Positions 1 to 9,133 of a DNA stretch of 64,000 nucleotides are shown one piece after another; within the stretch, counting starts at the first letter, position 1; the number at the start of each line of letters is the position of its first letter. Source of the DNA: Shigella phage ESh22. The position numbers were made by a program, and so were the translations under genes. The stretch lies in the sequence record ON528732. One strand, given 5' to 3'. The notes below the pieces were generated by a model. The model was not told the DNA's origin. It ran no database searches and saw only the letters and a list, made by a program, of their open reading frames with translations.

Positions 1-20
1 TTCATAGGAATCTCCTAATT

Positions 21-98
21 TGGTGTTCCAAGACGGATTCGAACCGTCACTAATACAAGGTTTGAGCTTGCATCCTCTGCCAATTGGGATACTGGAAC
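21..98 (-). tRNA. tRNA, isotype undetermined (anticodon loop reads CAA but D-arm is atypical)
   Basis: Minus-strand T-arm GACGG-TTCGAAT-CCGTC, 7-bp acceptor pairing (GTTCCAG/TTGGAAC), encoded CCA. Confidence 0.6.
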
Positions 99-99
99 T

Positions 100-174
100 T
101 GGTACTCGCTGAAGGACTTGAACCTTCTTCACCAACTTGTAAGGATGGGGCTTTACCATATAAACTAAGCGAGC
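100..174 (-). tRNA. tRNA-Val (anticodon UAC)
   Basis: T-arm GGTTCAAGTCC, acceptor GCTCGCT/AGCGAGT, CCA encoded, loop CTTACAA. Confidence 0.7.
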
Positions 175-268
175 TTTAAAGAGGTCTGAAGTTGTGCCGC
201 TAACTCAACTCCGTGGAATTTGTTACGGTCTTCAGTTGACTCAAGCGGTCTTTCACTTGACCTCAAAT

Positions 269-345
269 TGGTGCTGCTCACAGGACTTGAACCCGCATCT
301 CCATCCTTACAAGGGATGTGTAATAGCCAATTATACGAAAGCAGC
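269..345 (-). tRNA. tRNA-Thr (anticodon UGU)
   Basis: T-arm GGTTCAAGTCC, acceptor GCTGCTT/GAGCAGC, CCA encoded, anticodon stem CATCC/GGATG with loop CTTGTAA. Confidence 0.7.
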
Positions 346-351
346 ATTATT

Positions 352-426
352 TGGAGCATCCAGAGGGAATCGAACCCTCAACCTCAGTTTGGAAGACTGT
401 AATTTTCCCGTTTAAACTATGGATGC
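352..426 (-). tRNA. tRNA-Gly (anticodon UCC)
   Basis: T-arm GGTTCGATTCC, acceptor GCATCCA/TGGATGC, CCA encoded, loop CTTCCAA. Confidence 0.7.
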
Positions 427-432
427 ACTAAT

Positions 433-508
433 TGGTGGAGAAGCAGGGAATTGAACCCTGTACTTAAGTTTGCAAAACTTATGTTTTAACCATGTAAACT
501 ACATCCCC
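433..508 (-). tRNA. tRNA-Ala (anticodon UGC)
   Basis: T-arm GGTTCAATTCC, acceptor GGGGATG/CTTCTCC (one mismatch), CCA encoded, anticodon stem TAAGT/ACTTA with loop TTTGCAA. Confidence 0.65.
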
Positions 509-514
509 GATATT

Positions 515-590
515 TGGTACAGGTGGAGGGAATTGAACCCATCATCTTACTGATTAAGAGTCAGCCGCATAACCATTTTGCTACACCTGC
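515..590 (-). tRNA. tRNA-Lys (anticodon CUU)
   Basis: T-arm GGTTCAATTCC, acceptor GCAGGTG/CACCTGT, CCA encoded, loop CTCTTAA. Confidence 0.7.
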
Positions 591-597
591 ACTAATT

Positions 598-675
598 TGG
601 TGGGAGACAAGGGATTCGAACCCTCAAACACCAACTTCTAAGGATGGTAGGTTTACCAATTACCGTCAATCTCCC
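598..675 (-). tRNA. tRNA, isotype undetermined (loop reads UAG but D-arm is atypical)
   Basis: T-arm GGTTCGAATCC, acceptor GGGAGAT/GTCTCCC, CCA encoded. Confidence 0.6.
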
Positions 676-922
676 ATTAAATCTTTGTAGAGAGCTTCCA
701 AGACTCCAAAGCAACAATGGTATATTATGCCTTGAAAACTCTCTAAAAAGACCTAAACAGTCTTTATATAGTCTTATTCAATCCGGTGACTAGAACCTTT
801 GGAGAGCTTGATACTATCTCTTCTCCGTGACACCTACTAGGTGCTTTATAGTCGTGCCGTGTACGCCAATACACGAGTAAAAACCGAGCTTGTTCGACGA
901 GCGCGGGAATTAAATCTTATTA

Positions 923-1009
923 GGCGGTAAGTAAAGGAGTCGAACCCTCACCGTATCTCTACAGTGGCAACTGTTTTCAAGACAGTTTGGCTACCATTAG
1001 CCGCTACCT
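923..1009 (-). tRNA. Type-II tRNA-like gene, Ser(UGA)-like anticodon arm, weak acceptor pairing; possibly degenerate
   Basis: T-arm GAGGG-TTCGACT-CCTTT, anticodon stem ACTGT/ACAGT with loop CTTGAAA, long variable region, no encoded CCA, only about 5 bp acceptor pairing. Confidence 0.4.
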
Positions 1010-1025
1010 ACCCCTAATGAGACTT

Positions 1026-1108
1026 TGGCATGGGACGGAGGAATCGAACCCCTTTGAGTAAGTTTTGGAGGCTTACGCACATGCCTTAGTGTCTTAACAT
1101 CGTCCCAT
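1026..1108 (-). tRNA. tRNA, 83 nt with extended D region; anticodon uncertain (possibly CCA/Trp)
   Basis: T-arm GGTTCGATTCC, perfect acceptor ATGGGAC/GTCCCAT, CCA encoded. Confidence 0.5.
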
Positions 1109-1268
1109 ACTATAATTCGAAGCTTACCGTATTATCACAACACTGTCAAGCCCCTTCTCAGATTATTTACATGTTCTGGAAAACATGAGATACAGACCAC
1201 CTCCTTATGAGATTGACTCTTTCAAGTCAATGCGGAGACCCATAAAGGTCGTCGTAGTAATCTGCTAA

Positions 1269-1616
1269 CTAATATTTTGCATGTCTTATTCTGTGGCAAT
1301 TTGCACAAAGTAACACACATTTATCAAGTTCATCCTTCAACTCTTTAGAGAATTTTAGGCTTTTCCTTCTACCAATACTAAAATCTTTTTCTGAAGGATT
1401 TAAATGATGAAAGTCATACACTGCCGGATGATACCTTTTACCACAATCGTAACATACACCACCTTTATACTCTATTGCGAGTATCTTTAAGTTTCTCTGT
1501 CTTTCGATTGTTTGCTCATTGACACACTGTTTACAGTATGAATGAGTCATCTTACCATCTTTCATGTAGAAATCATTATCATCCTTGTTCAGTTTACACT
1601 TTATACAAGTTCTCAT
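1269..1616 (-). CDS. HNH homing endonuclease embedded in the tRNA array
   Basis: 115 aa ORF; Cys-rich N-terminus (CxxC, CxxC) and C-terminal HNH-like motif YDFHHLNP...CVLLCANCHRIRH. Confidence 0.6.
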   Translation of the reverse strand: MRTCIKCKLNKDDNDFYMKDGKMTHSYCKQCVNEQTIERQRNLKILAIEYKGGVCYDCGKRYHPAVYDFHHLNPSEKDFSIGRRKSLKFSKELKDELDKCVLLCANCHRIRHAKY

Positions 1617-1631
1617 GATTTCATCCTAAAT

Positions 1632-1707
1632 TGGCACTCCGTATAGGACTCGAACCTATATATGAACTGTTTAGAAGACAGTTGCCTATCCTTTAGACTA
1701 ACGGAGC
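1632..1707 (-). tRNA. tRNA-Arg (anticodon UCU)
   Basis: T-arm GGTTCGAGTCC, acceptor GCTCCGT/ACGGAGT, CCA encoded, anticodon stem ACTGT/ACAGT with loop CTTCTAA. Confidence 0.7.
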
Positions 1708-1984
1708 ATTAACATTTTAAAGAGCACTCATTGCATTTAAGCCAAGCCCCATAAGGGATGCTCTTTAGAATGTTGCCCACTTTATTAATCATACCGTGGG
1801 CTAGTACGCCAAATTCTTTAACAGGGAGTTGGAATACCCTGCTGGTGTTTAGCCTATTAAGCTACTGCCAGAAAAACATTATCGTTTGCATTTATTTTTA
1901 AGTTTTTAAAATAGACGCTACGCTAACGAAAACTAAGGTTATCTTAAAGTGGTCACATCTGAAATGTCAACAACTTTATGAAAT

Positions 1985-2059
1985 TGGTTGTAGGTGAGGG
2001 TATCGAACCCTCTTCTAACGGTTATCAGCCGTTTGCATTACCATTTATGCTAACCCACA
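1985..2059 (-). tRNA. tRNA-Ile (anticodon GAU)
   Basis: T-arm GGTTCGATACC, acceptor TGTGGGT/ACCTACA, CCA encoded, anticodon stem AACGG/CCGTT with loop CTGATAA. Confidence 0.65.
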
Positions 2060-2061
2060 AT

Positions 2062-2138
2062 TGGAGGTTCAGGTGGGAATCGAACCCACATTCATAGGGC
2101 TTATGAGACCCTTGCATTACCTTATCTGCGACTGAACC
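2062..2138 (-). tRNA. tRNA-Met (anticodon CAU; could be elongator Met or Ile2)
   Basis: T-arm GGTTCGATTCC, acceptor GGTTCAG/CTGAACC, CCA encoded, loop CTCATAA. Confidence 0.65.
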
Positions 2139-2142
2139 ATTT

Positions 2143-2218
2143 TGGTAGAAGTGGAGGGATTCGAACCCATCGCCTGTCAGATTAAAAGTCTGCCGCATCA
2201 CCATTCTGCTACACTTCC
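2143..2218 (-). tRNA. tRNA-Lys (anticodon UUU)
   Basis: T-arm GGTTCGAATCC, acceptor GGAAGTG/CACTTCT, CCA encoded, loop CTTTTAA. Confidence 0.7.
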
Positions 2219-2639
2219 ATTAAATCATCTTTGCAGTAACCTACGCAAACCTTGCTAAAGGGTTTGTAGAGTTATCTCTTAGTAAGCTAATCTAGAATCA
2301 TGCTCAAGAGATTCATCGGCACTCATGGGACGATATATTAGCTCCATAAGTCACTGCAAAGAGGATTACCAGACCGTATCATCTTAAGTGCTACCATTAC
2401 ACCAACACGCCGTAACGTGTGAAGGAATCGAACCTTCTCCCTTTCTTTTATAGAGAATTAGATTGTTTAAATTGCTGTAAACGGTCTTCTGTAAATTTGT
2501 TGGAACCAGACCAAGTTTTAAATTTTTCAAATTAATTGGCTTGAAATATTTTTGTTGCTTGCTGAATTTGGTCTTCTGCTCCTTTAAAGAATACTCACAA
2601 GAACTCTTTAAGGGAGGGGCTAAAAAGCCCTCTCAAATT

Positions 2640-2717
2640 TGGCGGTTACGAAGGGATTCGAACCCTCATCATCCTCCGTGACAGGGAGGTATTTTAACCA
2701 GATTAAACTACATAACC
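2640..2717 (-). tRNA. tRNA-Asp (anticodon GUC)
   Basis: T-arm GGTTCGAATCC, acceptor GGTTATG/CGTAACC, CCA encoded, anticodon stem CCTCC/GGAGG with loop CTGTCAC. Confidence 0.75.
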
Positions 2718-2723
2718 TTTATT

Positions 2724-2811
2724 TGGTGCGCCGTGAAGGAGTCGAACCTACCGAGTCGTAATGACAAGCGATTTACAGTCGCCACCGCTTCCATCTACGG
2801 GATAACGACGC
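2724..2811 (-). tRNA. tRNA-Tyr (anticodon GUA), type II
   Basis: 88 nt with long variable arm, T-arm GGTTCGACTCC, acceptor GCGTCGT/ACGGCGC, CCA encoded, loop CTGTAAA. Confidence 0.7.
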
Positions 2812-2821
2812 ATTTAAATTT

Positions 2822-2898
2822 TGGCGGTTAGTCAGGGATTCGAACCCTGTGCCATTCGGTTAACAGCCGACCGCACATGCCTTATGTGCTTCCTAACC
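2822..2898 (-). tRNA. tRNA-Asn (anticodon GUU)
   Basis: T-arm GGTTCGAATCC, acceptor GGTTAGG/ACTAACC, CCA encoded, loop CTGTTAA. Confidence 0.65.
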
Positions 2899-2981
2899 GT
2901 GTTTAACATTACCAGACCGTATTCATTTTAATTTTCCGATAAAATTGTTTTTAAATTGCTGTAAACGGTCTTCTGTAAATT

Positions 2982-3058
2982 TGGAGGCGGGTGTTGGAGT
3001 CGAACCAACCGTTACCATGCTAATGAGACATGTGAGACGCCCTTTCTCTATACCCGCG
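2982..3058 (-). tRNA. tRNA with CAU anticodon (Met, fMet or Ile2); 1-72 mismatch
   Basis: T-arm GGTTCGACTCC, acceptor CGCGGGT/ACCCGCC with unpaired position 1, CCA encoded, loop CTCATTA. Confidence 0.55.
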
Positions 3059-3143
3059 ATTCTTAATGACCAGACCAAGCTTTTTATGTTTTCTATGCGC
3101 GAAAAGTAAAAGTTGTTTGCTGTATTTGGTCTTCTGTCAAATT

Positions 3144-3221
3144 TGGCGTTCCAGAAGGGACTTGAACCCTCAAAACTCCACATTGAAAGTGTGGTGACTT
3201 TACCAATTTGTCTACTGGAAC
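3144..3221 (-). tRNA. tRNA-Glu (anticodon UUC)
   Basis: T-arm GGTTCAAGTCC, perfect acceptor GTTCCAG/CTGGAAC, CCA encoded, anticodon stem CCACA/TGTGG with loop CTTTCAA. Confidence 0.75.
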
Positions 3222-3227
3222 ATAATT

Positions 3228-3307
3228 TGGTCTCCGTTGAAGGATTTGAACCCTCGACCCCTTGCTCCCAAAGCAAGTGCTGCTAAACCAAACTGAGCTA
3301 AACGGAG
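3228..3307 (-). tRNA. tRNA-Pro (anticodon UGG)
   Basis: T-arm GGTTCAAATCC, acceptor CTCCGTT/AACGGAG, CCA encoded, D-arm GCTCAGTTTGG, anticodon stem CTTGC/GCAAG with loop TTTGGGA. Confidence 0.7.
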
Positions 3308-3472
3308 ATAATCTTTTTAAACTCTATGAAACCACTATAACATTATTTTTTAGTGTTTGTCAAGAGGTTTTTTAAAACATTTTGAAAATCTTTTAGAAAA
3401 ACTCTTTTTCGTTTCGATGTAGAACATCTTACAGGGTATCAACAACCTTGTCAATACCCTTTTTAAAACTTT

Positions 3473-4888
3473 TTACCAATCGTAACGTTCAGACATTACT
3501 GCTTTTAGCATTACGCTGATTGGGTCAAACTTCTCACCACCAAGTAGAGCCTTTAATGTAGCTGGAGAGAACCCTGAAACCATTGCTACTCCGTTATCAT
3601 TAATAGACACTTCGCAGTTACCACCACGATTTGCCAGATACCAGAATACCAACTGAGGCATTTCATAACCTGATTCTTCATACTTACGACGAATTGCTTC
3701 GAAGTTAGTATTACCACGCTGACCATCAACAGAGTTAAACTGCATGTCAGAGAAGATGATAAGCTTACGTGGCATTGCATCTTGAGTCAAGTTATTTCTT
3801 TTACCAATTTCAAGAATCCTGTCAAAAGCAGCTTGAAGGTTTGTTGAACCATACTCTACATGTGACATGACCTGAGCCATACGATTCTTCAGAGAGCCAC
3901 TTAGAGTGATAAAGAATGGATTTGTGGAGTAAACCATTAACTCATCTTTAAAACACCCTGTATTGCGTTCTGCGACGTATAACGCCAAAGATACACCAAT
4001 ATCAAGAGCGTCTACAGAACCGTGACGTTCACACGTCATAGAGCCTGATACGTCAGTCATGCAAAGAATGTTTTCACCACCCTTCATCCAGTTTGGCAGT
4101 GCTTTCCATTGCTCATTAGCCACTTCACTACGACCGTACTTCACAGCTTTGGTGATATCATATGGGTAAACAGCACCAGCGTTAATCTTGGTAGTACCCT
4201 CTGTCAGAGCTTTTACATACTCTGCATAACGTTCTCCACCTTTTCGTGTGAACAATTTCTGATAACGTGCAGCAGCCAGTGAAGGAAGCTTGCTGTAATC
4301 AATCTCACCAAACTCATTTGCAGAAATCTTTTGCTCTACGGTATCTGACAGTGCTGATAACATCAGACGATACTCTTTCTGGCTTAGATTTGCAAACTTG
4401 CAGAAACGCTTTACAAAATTCATGTGACGCTTCTTAACTCTTGGCAGCCACTTAGCAGCTAACGCTGAAGTGTTTGGGTCCAACAGTCCTTGCTCAATGT
4501 GCTTGAAAGCATCAGTCTCGTAACGAGTACCTACGAAGATTTTGAAGTCATCATAACGACCTAGTTCAGAAATCTTAGCCATGATACGCAGAACTTGGAA
4601 CTCATCAAGTATGTTGGTTCTGATAGATTCTGATAGGACAGTTCTGAATGCTTTACGTTCTCCCATACCTTCTCGTGCATCTCGCATATGAAGTAAGATT
4701 CGAACCGCTACATCGATATCTTCTCGCAGAGCTTTGTAAAACAGATTTGGTAGAGTCTCTGGGTAGTTACGGCTTGAACCAGCAGCCTTATAAAAGTCTA
4801 CCAAGGCAGACATTGAGGTCAGATGGTTAACAGCACCATTTTCAGTCAAACCAGCATGTAATTTTGCGTGGTTAAATAATTCGCTCAT
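3473..4888 (-). CDS. vWA-domain protein (MIDAS DxSGS motif) with N-terminal helical domain; DUF2828/TROVE-like architecture
   Basis: Track ORF 3473..4957; start moved to ATG at 4888 (MSELFNHAKL). C-terminal motif LCMTDVSGSM typical of vWA MIDAS. Confidence 0.5.
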   Translation of the reverse strand: MSELFNHAKLHAGLTENGAVNHLTSMSALVDFYKAAGSSRNYPETLPNLFYKALREDIDVAVRILLHMRDAREGMGERKAFRTVLSESIRTNILDEFQVLRIMAKISELGRYDDFKIFVGTRYETDAFKHIEQGLLDPNTSALAAKWLPRVKKRHMNFVKRFCKFANLSQKEYRLMLSALSDTVEQKISANEFGEIDYSKLPSLAAARYQKLFTRKGGERYAEYVKALTEGTTKINAGAVYPYDITKAVKYGRSEVANEQWKALPNWMKGGENILCMTDVSGSMTCERHGSVDALDIGVSLALYVAERNTGCFKDELMVYSTNPFFITLSGSLKNRMAQVMSHVEYGSTNLQAAFDRILEIGKRNNLTQDAMPRKLIIFSDMQFNSVDGQRGNTNFEAIRRKYEESGYEMPQLVFWYLANRGGNCEVSINDNGVAMVSGFSPATLKALLGGEKFDPISVMLKAVMSERYDW

Positions 4889-4966
4889 AATACTCTCTCT
4901 TCTCTCATTGTTGTTGATGAGACAGACTCTAAAGTAACCAATAAAGTCTGTCAACACCTTTTTAAA

Positions 4967-5338
4967 TTATTTCTTCAGAGTTGCTACAGCAGAGAACGTT
5001 GGTTTGTTGTCTTGTGGTTTCTCTCCACCCTTTTCACCACCACCTTTAACATCTGCTGCAATTGCTTTCATCTCACCTGCTGAGTGAGTCATGATAGTTT
5101 TACCAGCTTCCATCATCGACTTCAAATTGACTTCATCAGGCTTGAGTCCAAACTCTGCCAGCTTTGTAGCATCCCTTGTAACAATTGCTTCAAATAACTT
5201 TGCAGCAAACTCTGCTGAGTTGTCAATGGTTAGTTGAGCTTTTACAAGAGAACTCTTGTTACGTGAACCTTTTGGTCTCCCAGAAGGGTTACCAGATTGA
5301 CCTTTTTTAAACTGGCCTTTGTTTGTTCTTTTGGTCAT
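4967..5338 (-). CDS. hypothetical protein with GNPxGRPKG motif (DUF5681-like)
   Basis: 123 aa ORF, basic N-terminus KGQSGNPSGRPKGSRN, terminator-free operon partner of the vWA gene. Confidence 0.4.
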   Translation of the reverse strand: MTKRTNKGQFKKGQSGNPSGRPKGSRNKSSLVKAQLTIDNSAEFAAKLFEAIVTRDATKLAEFGLKPDEVNLKSMMEAGKTIMTHSAGEMKAIAADVKGGGEKGGEKPQDNKPTFSAVATLKK

Positions 5339-5589
5339 TCAACCTCCTACTATGAAGACTTCTTAAAAGGCTTTTAAGATAAGAGATAGATATCCAGAAA
5401 GATATCTGTTTAAATAGCCTTTTTAGAAGAGTCTTTTAAGTTATCTTCTAAGTGTTTTATTACACTACATCTTGTCAATCCCCTTGTCAAGTAAAATTTT
5501 TAGGTTGCAATAGTTCTTGACTTGTTGTATGGATTACTGTACCATCTTACTTAAAGCTGTAGGTCTGCTTTATCTACAAAGGAGACTAA

Positions 5590-8760: not shown

Positions 8761-9133
8761 AGAGATTCCAGTAATTGTTGACGTTTCTGCTCATGGAAAC
8801 ATGGGTGAGCAAGAAGCAAATGCAGTTGTGTACCAACATAACGGTGAGTTGCGACTTCGTTTTGTGAAAAGTGGTAGTGTCCTACATCACCGATATAACG
8901 ATGAAGATGGTTGTCCTGTCTTTGGTTGGTGTGGTATTGACTTCCCGAAATATGCCATTTACTACCCAGATGGTCAGGAAGGCTGGACTACCCAATCTAT
9001 CTATGATGAACTGAACGGAGTACCACTTGAAGAAGAACTGCAAGATACCTTACTAACCTTCACCTTTATCAAAGAAGAGAAAGTTGGTGATATTTCTATA
9101 ACAGAAGCGCTGCAAGTGACACAGGTAATCTGA
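8753..9133 (+). CDS. hypothetical protein
   Basis: Track ORF 8654..9133; start moved to ATG at 8753 (MNKEIPV) overlapping upstream stop. Confidence 0.45.
   Translation: MNKEIPVIVDVSAHGNMGEQEANAVVYQHNGELRLRFVKSGSVLHHRYNDEDGCPVFGWCGIDFPKYAIYYPDGQEGWTTQSIYDELNGVPLEEELQDTLLTFTFIKEEKVGDISITEALQVTQVI

What the first reader, a model, noticed from the sequence alone, without database searches (positions are those of the whole stretch)
1..3310. Dense minus-strand tRNA array with embedded HNH endonuclease, degenerate members and repeated 3' flanks
At least 19 tRNA genes are packed head-to-tail, most with encoded CCA. Several deviate from canonical structure: an 83-nt gene with an extended D region (1026-1108), a Ser-like type-II gene with poor acceptor pairing (923-1009), and two genes with Leu-type anticodon triplets but type-I length (21-98, 598-675). 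A T-arm-only remnant lies at 2419-2440. A 34-nt element GTTTAAATTGCTGTAAACGGTCTTCTGTAAATTTG occurs at 2465-2499 and 2946-2984 just 3' of tRNA ends, with related GGTCTTCTG-containing segments near 2557-2580 and 3117-3145. The HNH gene at 1269-1616 suggests homing-endonuclease-driven rearrangement.
Basis: seen in the sequence. Interest (0 to 1): 0.4.

Follow-up and report, generated by a model that had tools for sequence, protein, structure and literature searches.

The report
Y-RNA-like RNAs beside phage Ro60-like gene
The "repeated flanks" inside this Felix O1-like phage tRNA cluster are four copies of a conserved, apparently undescribed structured RNA that sits next to a Ro60-like RNA-binding protein gene in very diverse phages, so it is probably that protein's missing Y-RNA-type partner.

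Summary
The window is a Felix O1-like (Mooglevirus) phage. The tRNA array is real: 18 ARAGORN tRNAs, one atypical Trp-like gene and an HNH gene.

The repeated 3' flanks and the "T-arm remnant" are not tRNA debris. They are four copies of one RNA module:
- a 7-bp closing stem that covaries;
- an invariant nUWCAGCAA at the 5' side of the loop;
- an invariant G after the stem.

One copy (2366-2494) carries a permuted tRNA-like domain (T arm, closed acceptor hairpin, D arm), as in bacterial YrlA.

The gene just upstream (3473-4888, DUF2828/DUF7788) is predicted to fold like Ro60.

A covariance model of the module gave 105 of 105 hits on the DUF2828 strand in 80 viral loci, and 35 of 35 in bacterial and MAG contigs. 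It also hit beside homologues in Listeria, Campylobacter, Klebsiella and Mycobacterium phages. It hit nothing in four tRNA arrays whose regions carry no DUF2828 gene.

Rfam 15 does not contain it, and YrlA and Y_RNA models do not match. I found no description in the literature searched. A 2024 preprint only speculated that such RNAs exist.

Protein binding is inferred, not shown. Verdict: new variant of a known kind, of high interest.

The parts
3067..3139 (-). Module A (short form), between tRNA-Glu and tRNA-Met. Outer helix UGAC/GUCA, internal loop AGA/G, 7-bp stem AGACCAA/UUGGUCU, CAGCAA at 3122-3117.
   Evidence: R1 hit 3066-3140, 53.0 bits, E 1.4e-8; fold; coordinates.
2909..2978 (-). Module B (short form), between tRNA-Met and tRNA-Asn. 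Outer helix UUAC/GUAA, stem AGACCGU/ACGGUCU, CAGCAA at 2961-2956.
   Evidence: R1 hit 2908-2979, 58.5 bits, E 7e-10.
2503..2581 (-). Module C (short form). Outer helix GGAGC/GUUCC, stem AGACCAA/UUGGUCU, CAGCAA at 2564-2559.
   Evidence: R1 hit 2502-2582, 45.9 bits, E 6e-7.
2366..2494 (-). Module D (long form). It has the same closing helix (stem 2487-2481 with 2377-2371) and CAGCAA at 2477-2472. The loop holds a permuted tRNA-like domain: a 4-bp junction helix AUCU/AGAU, a V hairpin, a T arm GAAGG-UUCGAUU-CCUUC (2437-2421), a closed acceptor-like hairpin ACACGU-UACG-GCGUGU, and a D arm with a GG loop.
   Evidence: Constrained fold; partial R1 hit 2424-2495; weak Rfam tRNA hit 2413-2476, 19 bits. 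Orthologues in L001-L007 carry a compensatory change in the acceptor-like hairpin.
3473..4888 (-). Ro60-like protein gene of 471 aa. The true start is probably the ATG at 4888, not the GTG of the 494-aa ORF. DUF2828 forms the HEAT-repeat ring and DUF7788 is a vWA domain with a MIDAS DxSxS motif.
   Evidence: Pfam; phrog_850 'RNA-binding protein', E 1e-171; AF2 pLDDT 90.3; Foldseek top 9 PDB hits all Ro60/TROVE; D279/S281/S283 invariant.
3334..3454 (-). Two sigma-70-like promoters (3454-3426 and 3363-3334) between the Ro60-like gene and tRNA-Pro. They are the likely start of the polycistronic tRNA/module transcript.
   Evidence: Consensus scan, 10/12 and 11/12 matches. No terminator-like site on the minus strand inside the array. 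Consensus matches only.
21..3307 (-). tRNA array: 18 ARAGORN tRNAs (Pro, Glu, Met, Asn, Tyr, Asp, Lys, Met, Ile, Arg, Ser, Leu, Lys, Ala, Gly, Thr, Val, Leu). The tRNAs on either side of modules A and B lie within a few bases of them.
1026..1108 (-). Atypical Trp(CCA)-like tRNA gene with a non-canonical D region.
   Evidence: Not called by ARAGORN or Rfam.
1269..1616 (-). HNH endonuclease gene inserted in the array.
   Evidence: phrog_2255, E 1.6e-38. Variable among relatives.
175..268 (-). Possible degenerate relative of the module. Two nested bulged helices carry GUGAAAGACCGC and ACUGAAGACCGU but no CAGCAA.
   Evidence: Fold -30 kcal/mol. 97-98% identical in Felix-like relatives against about 83% for the region. 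Not hit by R1.

Best explanation
The repeated elements are four genes for a structured non-coding RNA that works as the Y-RNA-type partner of the adjacent Ro60-like protein.

Shown:
- Each RNA is a hairpin closed by a 7-bp stem (A-G-R-N4 paired with N4-Y-C-U) whose sequence covaries.
- The 5' side of the loop starts with the invariant single-stranded motif nUWCAGCAA.
- An invariant unpaired G follows the stem.
- In this phage an extra 4-5-bp outer helix and an AGA/G internal loop extend the stem.
- The loop is a variable cargo. It is short and AU-rich in modules A-C, and a permuted tRNA-like domain in module D. In other phages it can be other folded domains or even a whole tRNA.
- The family is found on the same strand as DUF2828/DUF7788 genes, at a median distance of about 220-340 nt, across very distant phages.
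- The protein is predicted to have the Ro60 ring-plus-vWA fold.

Inferred:
- The array is transcribed as one precursor from the promoter-like sites at 3454-3334.
- Host RNase P and tRNA 3'-end processing of the adjacent tRNAs release the modules as RNAs of about 75-130 nt with short single-stranded tails.
- The protein binds the closing helix and the CAGCAA strand.
- The loop cargo recruits or mimics other factors. The tRNA-like domain would engage tRNA-recognising enzymes or defence nucleases, as Y RNAs tether Ro60 to PNPase.
- The particle then acts in RNA surveillance or counter-defence during infection. This fits the report that the Bas63 protein gp130, inferred here to be the orthologue, counters the Ppl defence system.
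For: RNA structure:
- The 5'-half signature alone occurs at 89 distinct sites on the gene strand and 3 on the other strand.
- 72 of the 89 have a perfect 7-nt partner downstream, against 6.3 expected. 70 of those 72 partners are followed by G.
- In 53 model hits, 99.5% of cells pair and 6 of 7 pairs change on both sides. G:C at pair 2, CAGCAA and the 3' G are invariant or nearly so.

Link to the protein:
- R1 gave 105 of 105 hits (E<=1) on the gene strand over 898 kb. In the 64-kb window it hit only the four modules.
- 52 of 80 viral loci have at least one module, 87 in all, and none lies inside the gene.
- At least 14 loci with a module (R1 E<0.01) have no tRNA at all.
- An independent collection gave 35 of 35 hits on the gene strand, mostly within 400 nt of the gene.
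- Modules lie beside homologues of only about 31-50% identity in Listeria, Campylobacter, Klebsiella and Mycobacterium phages.
- There is no hit in the tRNA arrays of Pistou, RB14, SB9 and tuntematon, whose fetched regions carry no annotated DUF2828 gene. Pistou is an Ounavirinae relative with the DUF5681 gene and a 26-tRNA array.

Protein:
- AF2 pLDDT is 90.3. The top nine PDB matches are full-length Ro60/TROVE structures, with E 7e-10 to 4e-7 and TM 0.53-0.66.
- The MIDAS motif is invariant.

tRNA mimicry: T arm, closed acceptor-like hairpin and D arm appear in module D and in L003, L008, L034 and L087. This is the YrlA layout described in PMC4201824.

Literature: Bas63 gp130 is Ro60-like and counters Ppl. 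The authors guessed that some 'tRNA genes' are Y RNAs (PMC11482910).
Against: - No binding or expression data exist. The partnership rests on synteny, strand and analogy.
- The Ro-binding motifs of known Y RNAs (GGUCCGA, GNCGAA) are absent. Rfam YrlA and Y_RNA models do not match.
- The protein has no sequence-level or profile-level similarity to solved Ro60 proteins.
- In the reverse search, 24 of 37 bona fide modules lay in stored stretches without a DUF2828 homologue. Several of those I then examined sit inside tRNA arrays. Many of these stretches end close to the module, and the rest of each contig could not be read, so an obligate link is not proven.
- 28 of 80 loci showed no module under the strict pattern.
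Confidence: 0.65

Rival explanations
1. The modules are cis-regulatory sites on the messenger or precursor RNA. The Ro60-like protein, or another factor, would bind them to control its own translation or stability, or the yield of the tRNA operon. They would not be free trans-acting RNAs.
For: Many copies lie 17-370 nt upstream of the gene or about 20-30 nt after its stop codon, where a leader or 3'-UTR element would sit.
Against: In this phage the modules are separated from the gene by two promoter-like sites and two tRNAs, and lie within a few bases of the flanking tRNAs. Copy number reaches 3-5 per locus. Copies occur on either side of the gene. Elaborate cargo domains, including tRNA mimics, are unlike simple operator sites.
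Confidence: 0.15
2. The modules are processing or stabilising punctuation of polycistronic tRNA precursors, for example RNase III or RNase E entry sites or spacers that help tRNAs fold. They would have no specific tie to the Ro60-like protein.
For: In the window and in several metagenomic loci they fill the space between two tRNAs almost exactly. Some of those stretches show no DUF2828 gene.
Against: At least 14 loci have modules beside the gene and no tRNA at all. Four tRNA arrays from phages whose fetched regions carry no DUF2828 gene have none. An invariant 8-nt single-stranded motif and conserved cargo are not needed for a nuclease site.
Confidence: 0.12
3. The flanks are decayed tRNA fragments or DNA-level repeats, such as homing-endonuclease targets or recombination scars left by rearrangement of the array.
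For: A T arm lies inside one copy. An HNH gene is in the array, and HNH content varies among relatives.
Against: The stems keep pairing through compensatory changes across phages that share no other DNA similarity. The element is strictly strand-specific, and tRNA order is conserved. The T arm is part of a complete, conserved T/acceptor/D domain.
Confidence: 0.03

Closest known systems
Bacterial and phage YrlA / Y RNAs bound by Ro60 (Rsr); Rfam RF02553 and RF00019; Chen et al. 2014, PMC4201824
   Same: Encoded next to a ring-shaped Ro60-type protein gene, on the same strand and often in several copies. Modular design: a stem formed by the RNA's two ends, plus a variable loop module. At least one copy per locus can carry a tRNA-like domain ordered T arm, closed acceptor-like hairpin, D arm.
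   Different: The conserved motif is nUWCAGCAA in the loop next to an A-G-R/Y-C-U stem base, not GGUCCGA or GNCGAA. Rfam models do not detect it. The protein is Pfam DUF2828/DUF7788, not TROVE, and resembles Ro60 only in predicted fold. In Felix O1-like phages the RNAs are embedded in a tRNA array.
Thermus phage phiLo Ro60 with Yrl1/Yrl2 (PMC12135203; PDB 9KOP, 9L5Y)
   Same: A phage-encoded Ro60-type ring protein with phage-encoded partner RNAs beside the gene. It is the best structural match to the model (E 6.7e-10).
   Different: Yrl1 and Yrl2 were picked by the CGAA motif and a stem-bulge-stem shape. Sequence identity is only 16-17% in the structural alignment, and there was no sequence hit.
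Bas63 gp130 (PhageMaP preprint, PMC11482910)
   Same: Bas63 is a Felixounavirus. gp130 lies directly upstream of the tRNA genes and is described as Ro60-like, so it is very probably the orthologue of 3473-4888. That equivalence is inferred and was not aligned here.
   Different: The preprint reports a phenotype (countering Ppl). It only speculates that some annotated tRNAs are Y RNAs. The RNAs found here are not the annotated tRNAs but the spacers between them.
Stable non-tRNA RNAs in the phage T4 tRNA cluster (species 1 and 2 RNAs; from my own knowledge)
   Same: Small stable RNAs co-transcribed with phage tRNAs and released by tRNA processing.
   Different: A T4-like tRNA region (RB14) has no match to the module. 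T4-like phages do not appear among the DUF2828 tblastn matches.

Membership tests
Y RNA / YrlA | Encoded close to a Ro60-type gene and on the same strand | tested here: met
   105/105 and 35/35 model hits on the gene strand. Median distance 223 nt upstream and 341 nt downstream.
Y RNA / YrlA | Stem formed by the 5' and 3' ends carries the Ro-binding motif (GGUCCGA in animals, GNCGAA(N)G in bacteria) | tested here: not met
   A terminal stem exists and covaries. The motif is absent, and the invariant bases are instead CAGCAA in the loop, G:C at stem pair 2, and a 3' G.
Y RNA / YrlA | At least one RNA per locus has a tRNA-like domain (T arm, acceptor-like stem-loop, D arm) | tested here: met
   Module D 2366-2494, and long forms in L003, L008, L034 and L087. 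The T loop UUCGAUU and the D-loop GG are read directly from the sequence.
Y RNA / YrlA | Matches the Rfam covariance models RF02553 (YrlA) or RF00019 (Y_RNA) | tested here: not met
   No hit on the modules at E<=10 in window 1-3600, or at E<=1 in six related loci.
Y RNA / YrlA | Physically bound by the Ro60-type protein in cells | not testable with these tools
   Needs RIP/CLIP or gel shifts.
Ro60 / TROVE protein | HEAT-repeat ring followed by a vWA domain with a MIDAS site | tested here: met
   AF2 model pLDDT 90.3. Full-length Foldseek matches to 9kop, 2i91, 1yvp, 9nfa and 9l5y, TM 0.53-0.66. DxSxS is invariant.
Ro60 / TROVE protein | Sequence membership in Pfam TROVE (PF05731), or detectable homology to solved Ro60 | tested here: not met
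   Pfam gives only DUF2828 and DUF7788. phmmer and profile searches of PDB find no Ro60.
tRNA (gene 1026-1108) | Cloverleaf recognised by tRNA detectors | tested here: not met
   Not called by ARAGORN or by Rfam at E<=10. A cloverleaf with an extended 8-10 spacer is still possible. The acceptor and anticodon stems show compensatory differences from the L008 copy.
HNH homing endonuclease (1269-1616) | HNH catalytic motif and family profile match, with presence/absence variation among relatives | tested here: met
   phrog_2255, E 1.6e-38. HH...N...H motif with CxxC pairs read in the translation. There is one copy here and three at other sites in Felix O1. Relatives with 93% query coverage list no HNH among the features shown.

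The most novel reading that the evidence does not exclude
DUF2828/DUF7788 proteins and CAGCAA-stem RNAs form a widespread, previously unrecognised phage ribonucleoprotein. It would be a second, sequence-unrelated lineage of Ro60/Y-RNA-type particles, present in more than 700 sequenced phages, including Felix O1-like, Listeria P100-like (Pecentumvirus), Campylobacter, Vibrio and mycobacterial phages. A common protein-binding handle would display interchangeable cargo (tRNA mimics, whole tRNAs, larger folded domains) to manipulate host RNA enzymes or to disarm defence systems such as Ppl. Because DUF2828 also occurs in eukaryotes, the handle motif could guide a search for their unknown RNA partners.
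Probability: 0.5. Interest if true: 0.85.

Novelty: new variant of a known kind. Interest (0 to 1): 0.72.

Why it matters
- It turns an unexplained repeat in a routine tRNA cluster into a defined RNA family with exact coordinates, a consensus and a working covariance model.
- It gives a large family of phage "RNA-binding proteins" (phrog_850) a candidate ligand. tblastn found homologues in 709 phage records, and at least 3,313 homologous protein clusters were detected.
- It makes directly testable the published guess that Felix O1-like phages carry Y RNAs used with a Ro60-like protein against the Ppl defence.
- It shows that spacers in phage tRNA arrays can be genes in their own right. At least one annotated small CDS (MsGreen gp55) is probably such an RNA.
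- The handle-plus-cargo design, including tRNA mimics, suggests a general way in which phages present decoy or adaptor RNAs.

Tried and rejected
- Rfam at gathering and at permissive thresholds found only tRNAs. Weak hits to permuted tmRNA (1857-2045), tRNA-Sec, Dictyostelium class I RNA and plastid elements are below threshold. They mostly overlap tRNA genes or the modules, and I treat them as chance.
- Sequence and profile searches of the protein against PDB found no Ro60. NCBIfam gave nothing.
- I considered the modules as promoters, because module A contains TTGACA. The other copies lack it and no -10 box follows.
- I considered them as terminators. There is no U tract, and no minus-strand terminator-like site in the array.
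- I could not read the phage list of Chen et al. 2014 (supplement not held) or two Wolin reviews. I therefore cannot exclude that a DUF2828 phage was among their 22 phages. They selected genomes by TROVE annotation.
- The reverse search from the RNA pattern was only partly informative. Stored stretches are cut arbitrarily, and the rest of each contig cannot be fetched.
- The Trp-like gene has too few distinct homologues (Sf16, L008) for a covariation test.

Full report
IDENTITY OF THE WINDOW. Bases 1-5400 match 299 phage records, nearly all Felix O1-like (Ounavirinae). Shigella phage Sf16 (Mooglevirus) covers 100% at 87.6% identity. Shigella phage ESh21 is 94.4% identical over 2200-3320, and its DUF2828 protein is 99.6% identical. 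In Felix O1 and Sf16 the same layout is annotated. It runs DUF5681 gene, then an 'RNA-binding protein'/DUF2828 gene, then a long same-strand tRNA array with HNH genes.

CHECK OF THE OBSERVATION. ARAGORN minus-strand tRNAs between 21 and 3307. The Rfam tRNA model passes 16; it misses Tyr 2724-2811 and Met 2982-3058. Seventeen encode CCA. Ser ends GCC followed by U.

The 83-nt gene at 1026-1108 is not called by either tool. It has a 7-bp acceptor stem, G73-CCA, the anticodon loop CUCCAAA and a T arm. A 9-nt spacer precedes a 3-bp D stem. The published Sf14 set of 26 tRNAs covers 19 amino acids and lacks only Trp (PMC12482277), so this gene may be the missing twentieth.

The two Leu genes are of type-I length. 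The Ser gene pairs 7 of 7 in the acceptor stem once the boundaries are 926-1012 (read from the sequence).

The 35-mer is exact at 2465-2499 and has one mismatch at 2949-2983. GGTCTTCTG occurs at 2483, 2570, 2967 and 3128. The HNH gene is confirmed by PHROGs.

WHAT THE REPEATS ARE. Read on the minus strand, each repeat is the 5' half of a hairpin. It runs (A/U-rich)-ACAGA-AGACCNN-nUWCAGCAA ... NNGGUCU-G-GUNN. The four copies are:
- A, 3139-3067, between tRNA-Glu and tRNA-Met;
- B, 2978-2909, between tRNA-Met and tRNA-Asn;
- C, 2581-2503;
- D, 2494-2366.

In this phage group an outer 4-5-bp helix also covaries between copies and between orthologues. Examples are UGAC/GUCA, UUAC/GUAA, UUGC/GCAA and GAGC/GCUC.

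With the closing stem constrained, module D folds into a four-way junction. It has a V hairpin, a T arm (GAAGG-UUCGAUU-CCUUC, 2437-2421), a closed acceptor-like hairpin and a D arm with a GG loop. This is the order described for YrlA in Chen et al. 2014.

THE NEIGHBOURING PROTEIN. ORF 3473-4957 matches Pfam DUF7788 (E 1.4e-43) and DUF2828 (E 1.9e-25), and phrog_850 'RNA-binding protein'. Homologues are 471 aa long, which puts the start at the ATG at 4888.

An AlphaFold2 model built on 48 homologues has mean pLDDT 90.3. Its nine best PDB matches are all full-length Ro60/TROVE structures. They include Thermus phage phiLo Ro60 and Xenopus Ro60 with RNA, at E 7e-10 to 4e-7 and TM 0.53-0.66. Isolated vWA domains follow. 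The MIDAS DxSxS motif is invariant.

No sequence or profile similarity to solved Ro60 proteins is detectable. Mycobacteriophage homologues are annotated 'Ro-like RNA binding protein'. Bas63 gp130 was noted as Ro60-like and as a counter to the Ppl defence. The authors guessed that some annotated tRNAs might be Y RNAs (PMC11482910).

THE RNA FAMILY ELSEWHERE. I fetched 80 viral loci encoding homologues of 37-80% identity. A simple scan found the same architecture on the gene strand beside most of them, with different stem sequences. Examples are AGAGCAC/GUGCUCU, AGGAUAG/CUAUCCU and UUGGUUCC/GGAACCAG.

A test that uses only the 5' half gave the following:
- The signature [AT]G[GA]N4-nTn-CAGCAA occurs at 89 distinct sites on the gene strand and at 3 on the other strand.
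- 72 of the 89 have a perfect 7-nt partner 15-260 nt downstream, against 6.3 expected from shuffled downstream sequence.
- 70 of those 72 partners are followed by G.

A covariance model was built from 38 short forms (A2, R1). Over 898 kb it gave 105 hits at E<=1, all on the strand of the DUF2828 gene. In the 64-kb window it hit only the four modules.

In 53 aligned hits, 99.5% of cells pair, and six of seven pairs change on both sides, the inner four showing four or more pair types each. Stem pair 2 is always G:C. C-A-G-C-A-A and the 3' G are invariant or nearly so. That alignment is fitted to the model, so the test is the cleaner evidence.

By the strict pattern, 52 of 80 loci carry 87 modules, none inside the gene. 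The median distance is 223 nt upstream or 341 nt downstream. Sizes fall into two classes, 46-73 nt and 87-251 nt.

IS THE LINK TO THE PROTEIN OR TO tRNAs? About half of the 60 loci I scanned have tRNA arrays nearby. At least 14 loci with modules (R1 E<0.01) have no tRNA at all.

Conversely, Erwinia phage Pistou is an Ounavirinae relative with the DUF5681 gene and a 26-tRNA array. It has no DUF2828 gene at that position and no module; the best score is 9 bits. The tRNA regions of RB14 (T4-like), SB9 (T5-like) and tuntematon also have none.

The model finds modules beside homologues in four more phages:
- Listeria phage LP-048, three copies, near an RtcB ligase gene;
- Campylobacter phage Los1;
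- Klebsiella phage FBKp34, including a long form with a canonical D arm, a 7-bp closed acceptor hairpin and a T arm;
- Mycobacterium phage MsGreen.

In an independent set of 80 bacterial and MAG contigs, 35 of 35 hits are on the gene strand, mostly within 400 nt of the gene.

The reverse search started from the RNA pattern and was less clean. Of 37 sites with a proper stem, 13 lay in stretches encoding a homologue, always on the same strand. Of 53 sites without a stem, 3 did. Among the stem-positive sites without a homologue, several of those examined sit between tRNAs in arrays. The rest of those contigs could not be read.

COMPARISON WITH KNOWN FAMILIES. The design is that of Y RNAs: a terminal stem as protein handle, a variable loop as effector module, a tRNA mimic in some copies, and a position next to a Ro60-type gene. 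It fails two defining tests for YrlA/Y RNA membership. The GGUCCGA/GNCGAA motif is absent, and Rfam RF02553 and RF00019 do not match. The protein is Ro60-like in predicted fold only.

Nothing in Rfam 15 matches the module. My literature searches found no description of it. I therefore class it as a new variant of a known kind.

MECHANISM. The best-supported account is as follows, and every step in it is inferred.
1. Promoter-like sites at 3454-3426 and 3363-3334 drive one precursor.
2. Processing of the tRNAs that flank the modules within a few bases frees the modules.
3. The Ro60-like ring binds the closing helix and the CAGCAA strand.
4. The cargo engages tRNA-recognising or RNA-degrading host factors.

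The rivals are an autoregulatory cis element, tRNA-precursor punctuation, and tRNA debris or DNA repeats. Each is scored separately in the rival explanations.

HNH. HNH content differs among close relatives while tRNA order is the same as in Sf14 and Felix O1. That indicates mobile insertion rather than rearrangement.

Noticed in passing
window 1026-1108 (-): Atypical Trp(CCA)-like tRNA with G73-CCA and an extended region before the D stem. No tool calls it and relatives do not annotate it. The closely related Sf14 is reported to cover 19 amino acids and to lack only Trp, so this may be the twentieth. A variant with compensatory stem changes is at L008 about 8993-9060 (Rfam tRNA 28.7 bits, just under threshold).
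   Followed up: partly
window 21-98 and 598-675 (-): tRNA-Leu(CAA) and tRNA-Leu(UAG) are 78 nt, so they are type I with no long variable arm, unlike bacterial and T4 tRNA-Leu. Other Ounavirinae (Pistou, L008) have the same short Leu tRNAs. In Sf14 they still score best as Leu in isotype models.
   Followed up: partly
window 2982-3058 (-): This tRNA-Met has a C1 x C72 mismatch at the top of the acceptor stem and discriminator U. The Rfam tRNA model does not detect it even at E<=10. It is flanked on both sides by modules A and B.
   Followed up: no
window 175-268 (-): A 94-nt spacer between tRNA-Thr and tRNA-Val is 97-98% identical in Felix-like relatives, against about 83% for the region. It folds into two nested helices, each with a purine bulge (GUG-AAAGA-CCGC, ACU-GAAGA-CCGU). 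It may be a diverged module lacking CAGCAA.
   Followed up: partly
window 1708-1984 (-): A 277-nt spacer after tRNA-Ile has a promoter-like site (1970-1941) and hairpins. About 135 nt are 80% conserved even in Erwinia phage Pistou. The weak sub-threshold hit to permuted tmRNA (33.8 bits against 47) is probably driven by the tRNA-Ile T arm.
   Followed up: partly
window 2219-2364 (-): A 146-nt near-perfect long hairpin (-48.5 kcal/mol) follows module D. Among the fetched loci it is found only in Sf16 (Mooglevirus).
   Followed up: partly
L055 4731-4830; L010 3840-4064, L016 2973-3184, L026 628-833, L057 4409-4659, L075 4066-4318; L010 4276-4370, L012 3133-3232, L017 149-280: Cargo diversity inside the same handle. 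One carries a complete tRNA-Thr (L055). One class carries a conserved domain of about 200-250 nt with GNRA-type loops and a GGUUCGAAC element. Another class contains CCUUUCUGGAGGGGAAAG. None matched Rfam in the loci I scanned.
   Followed up: no
L084 4664-4756 (Mycobacterium phage MsGreen gp55): A 30-codon 'hypothetical protein' overlaps a module hit (4665-4720). It is probably an RNA gene annotated as a CDS.
   Followed up: no
L085 (Listeria phage LP-048): The DUF2828 gene lies with three modules, tRNAs, an RtcB-like ligase and a phosphohydrolase. This recalls the bacterial rsr-yrlBA-rtcBA operon. LeBron's homologue (gp53) was moderately toxic when over-expressed (PMC13148394).
   Followed up: partly
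L034 6895-7015 and 7025-7137; L039 4218-4330; L087 5003-5116: tRNA-model hits or annotated tRNAs of 113-121 nt, so they carry insertions of about 40 nt. They lie next to DUF2828 genes.
   Followed up: no
window 2583-2639 (-): Two small conserved hairpins (GAGAGGGCUUUUUAGCCCCUC and an AU-rich one) lie between tRNA-Asp and module C. They are 91-96% conserved and have no U tract.
   Followed up: no
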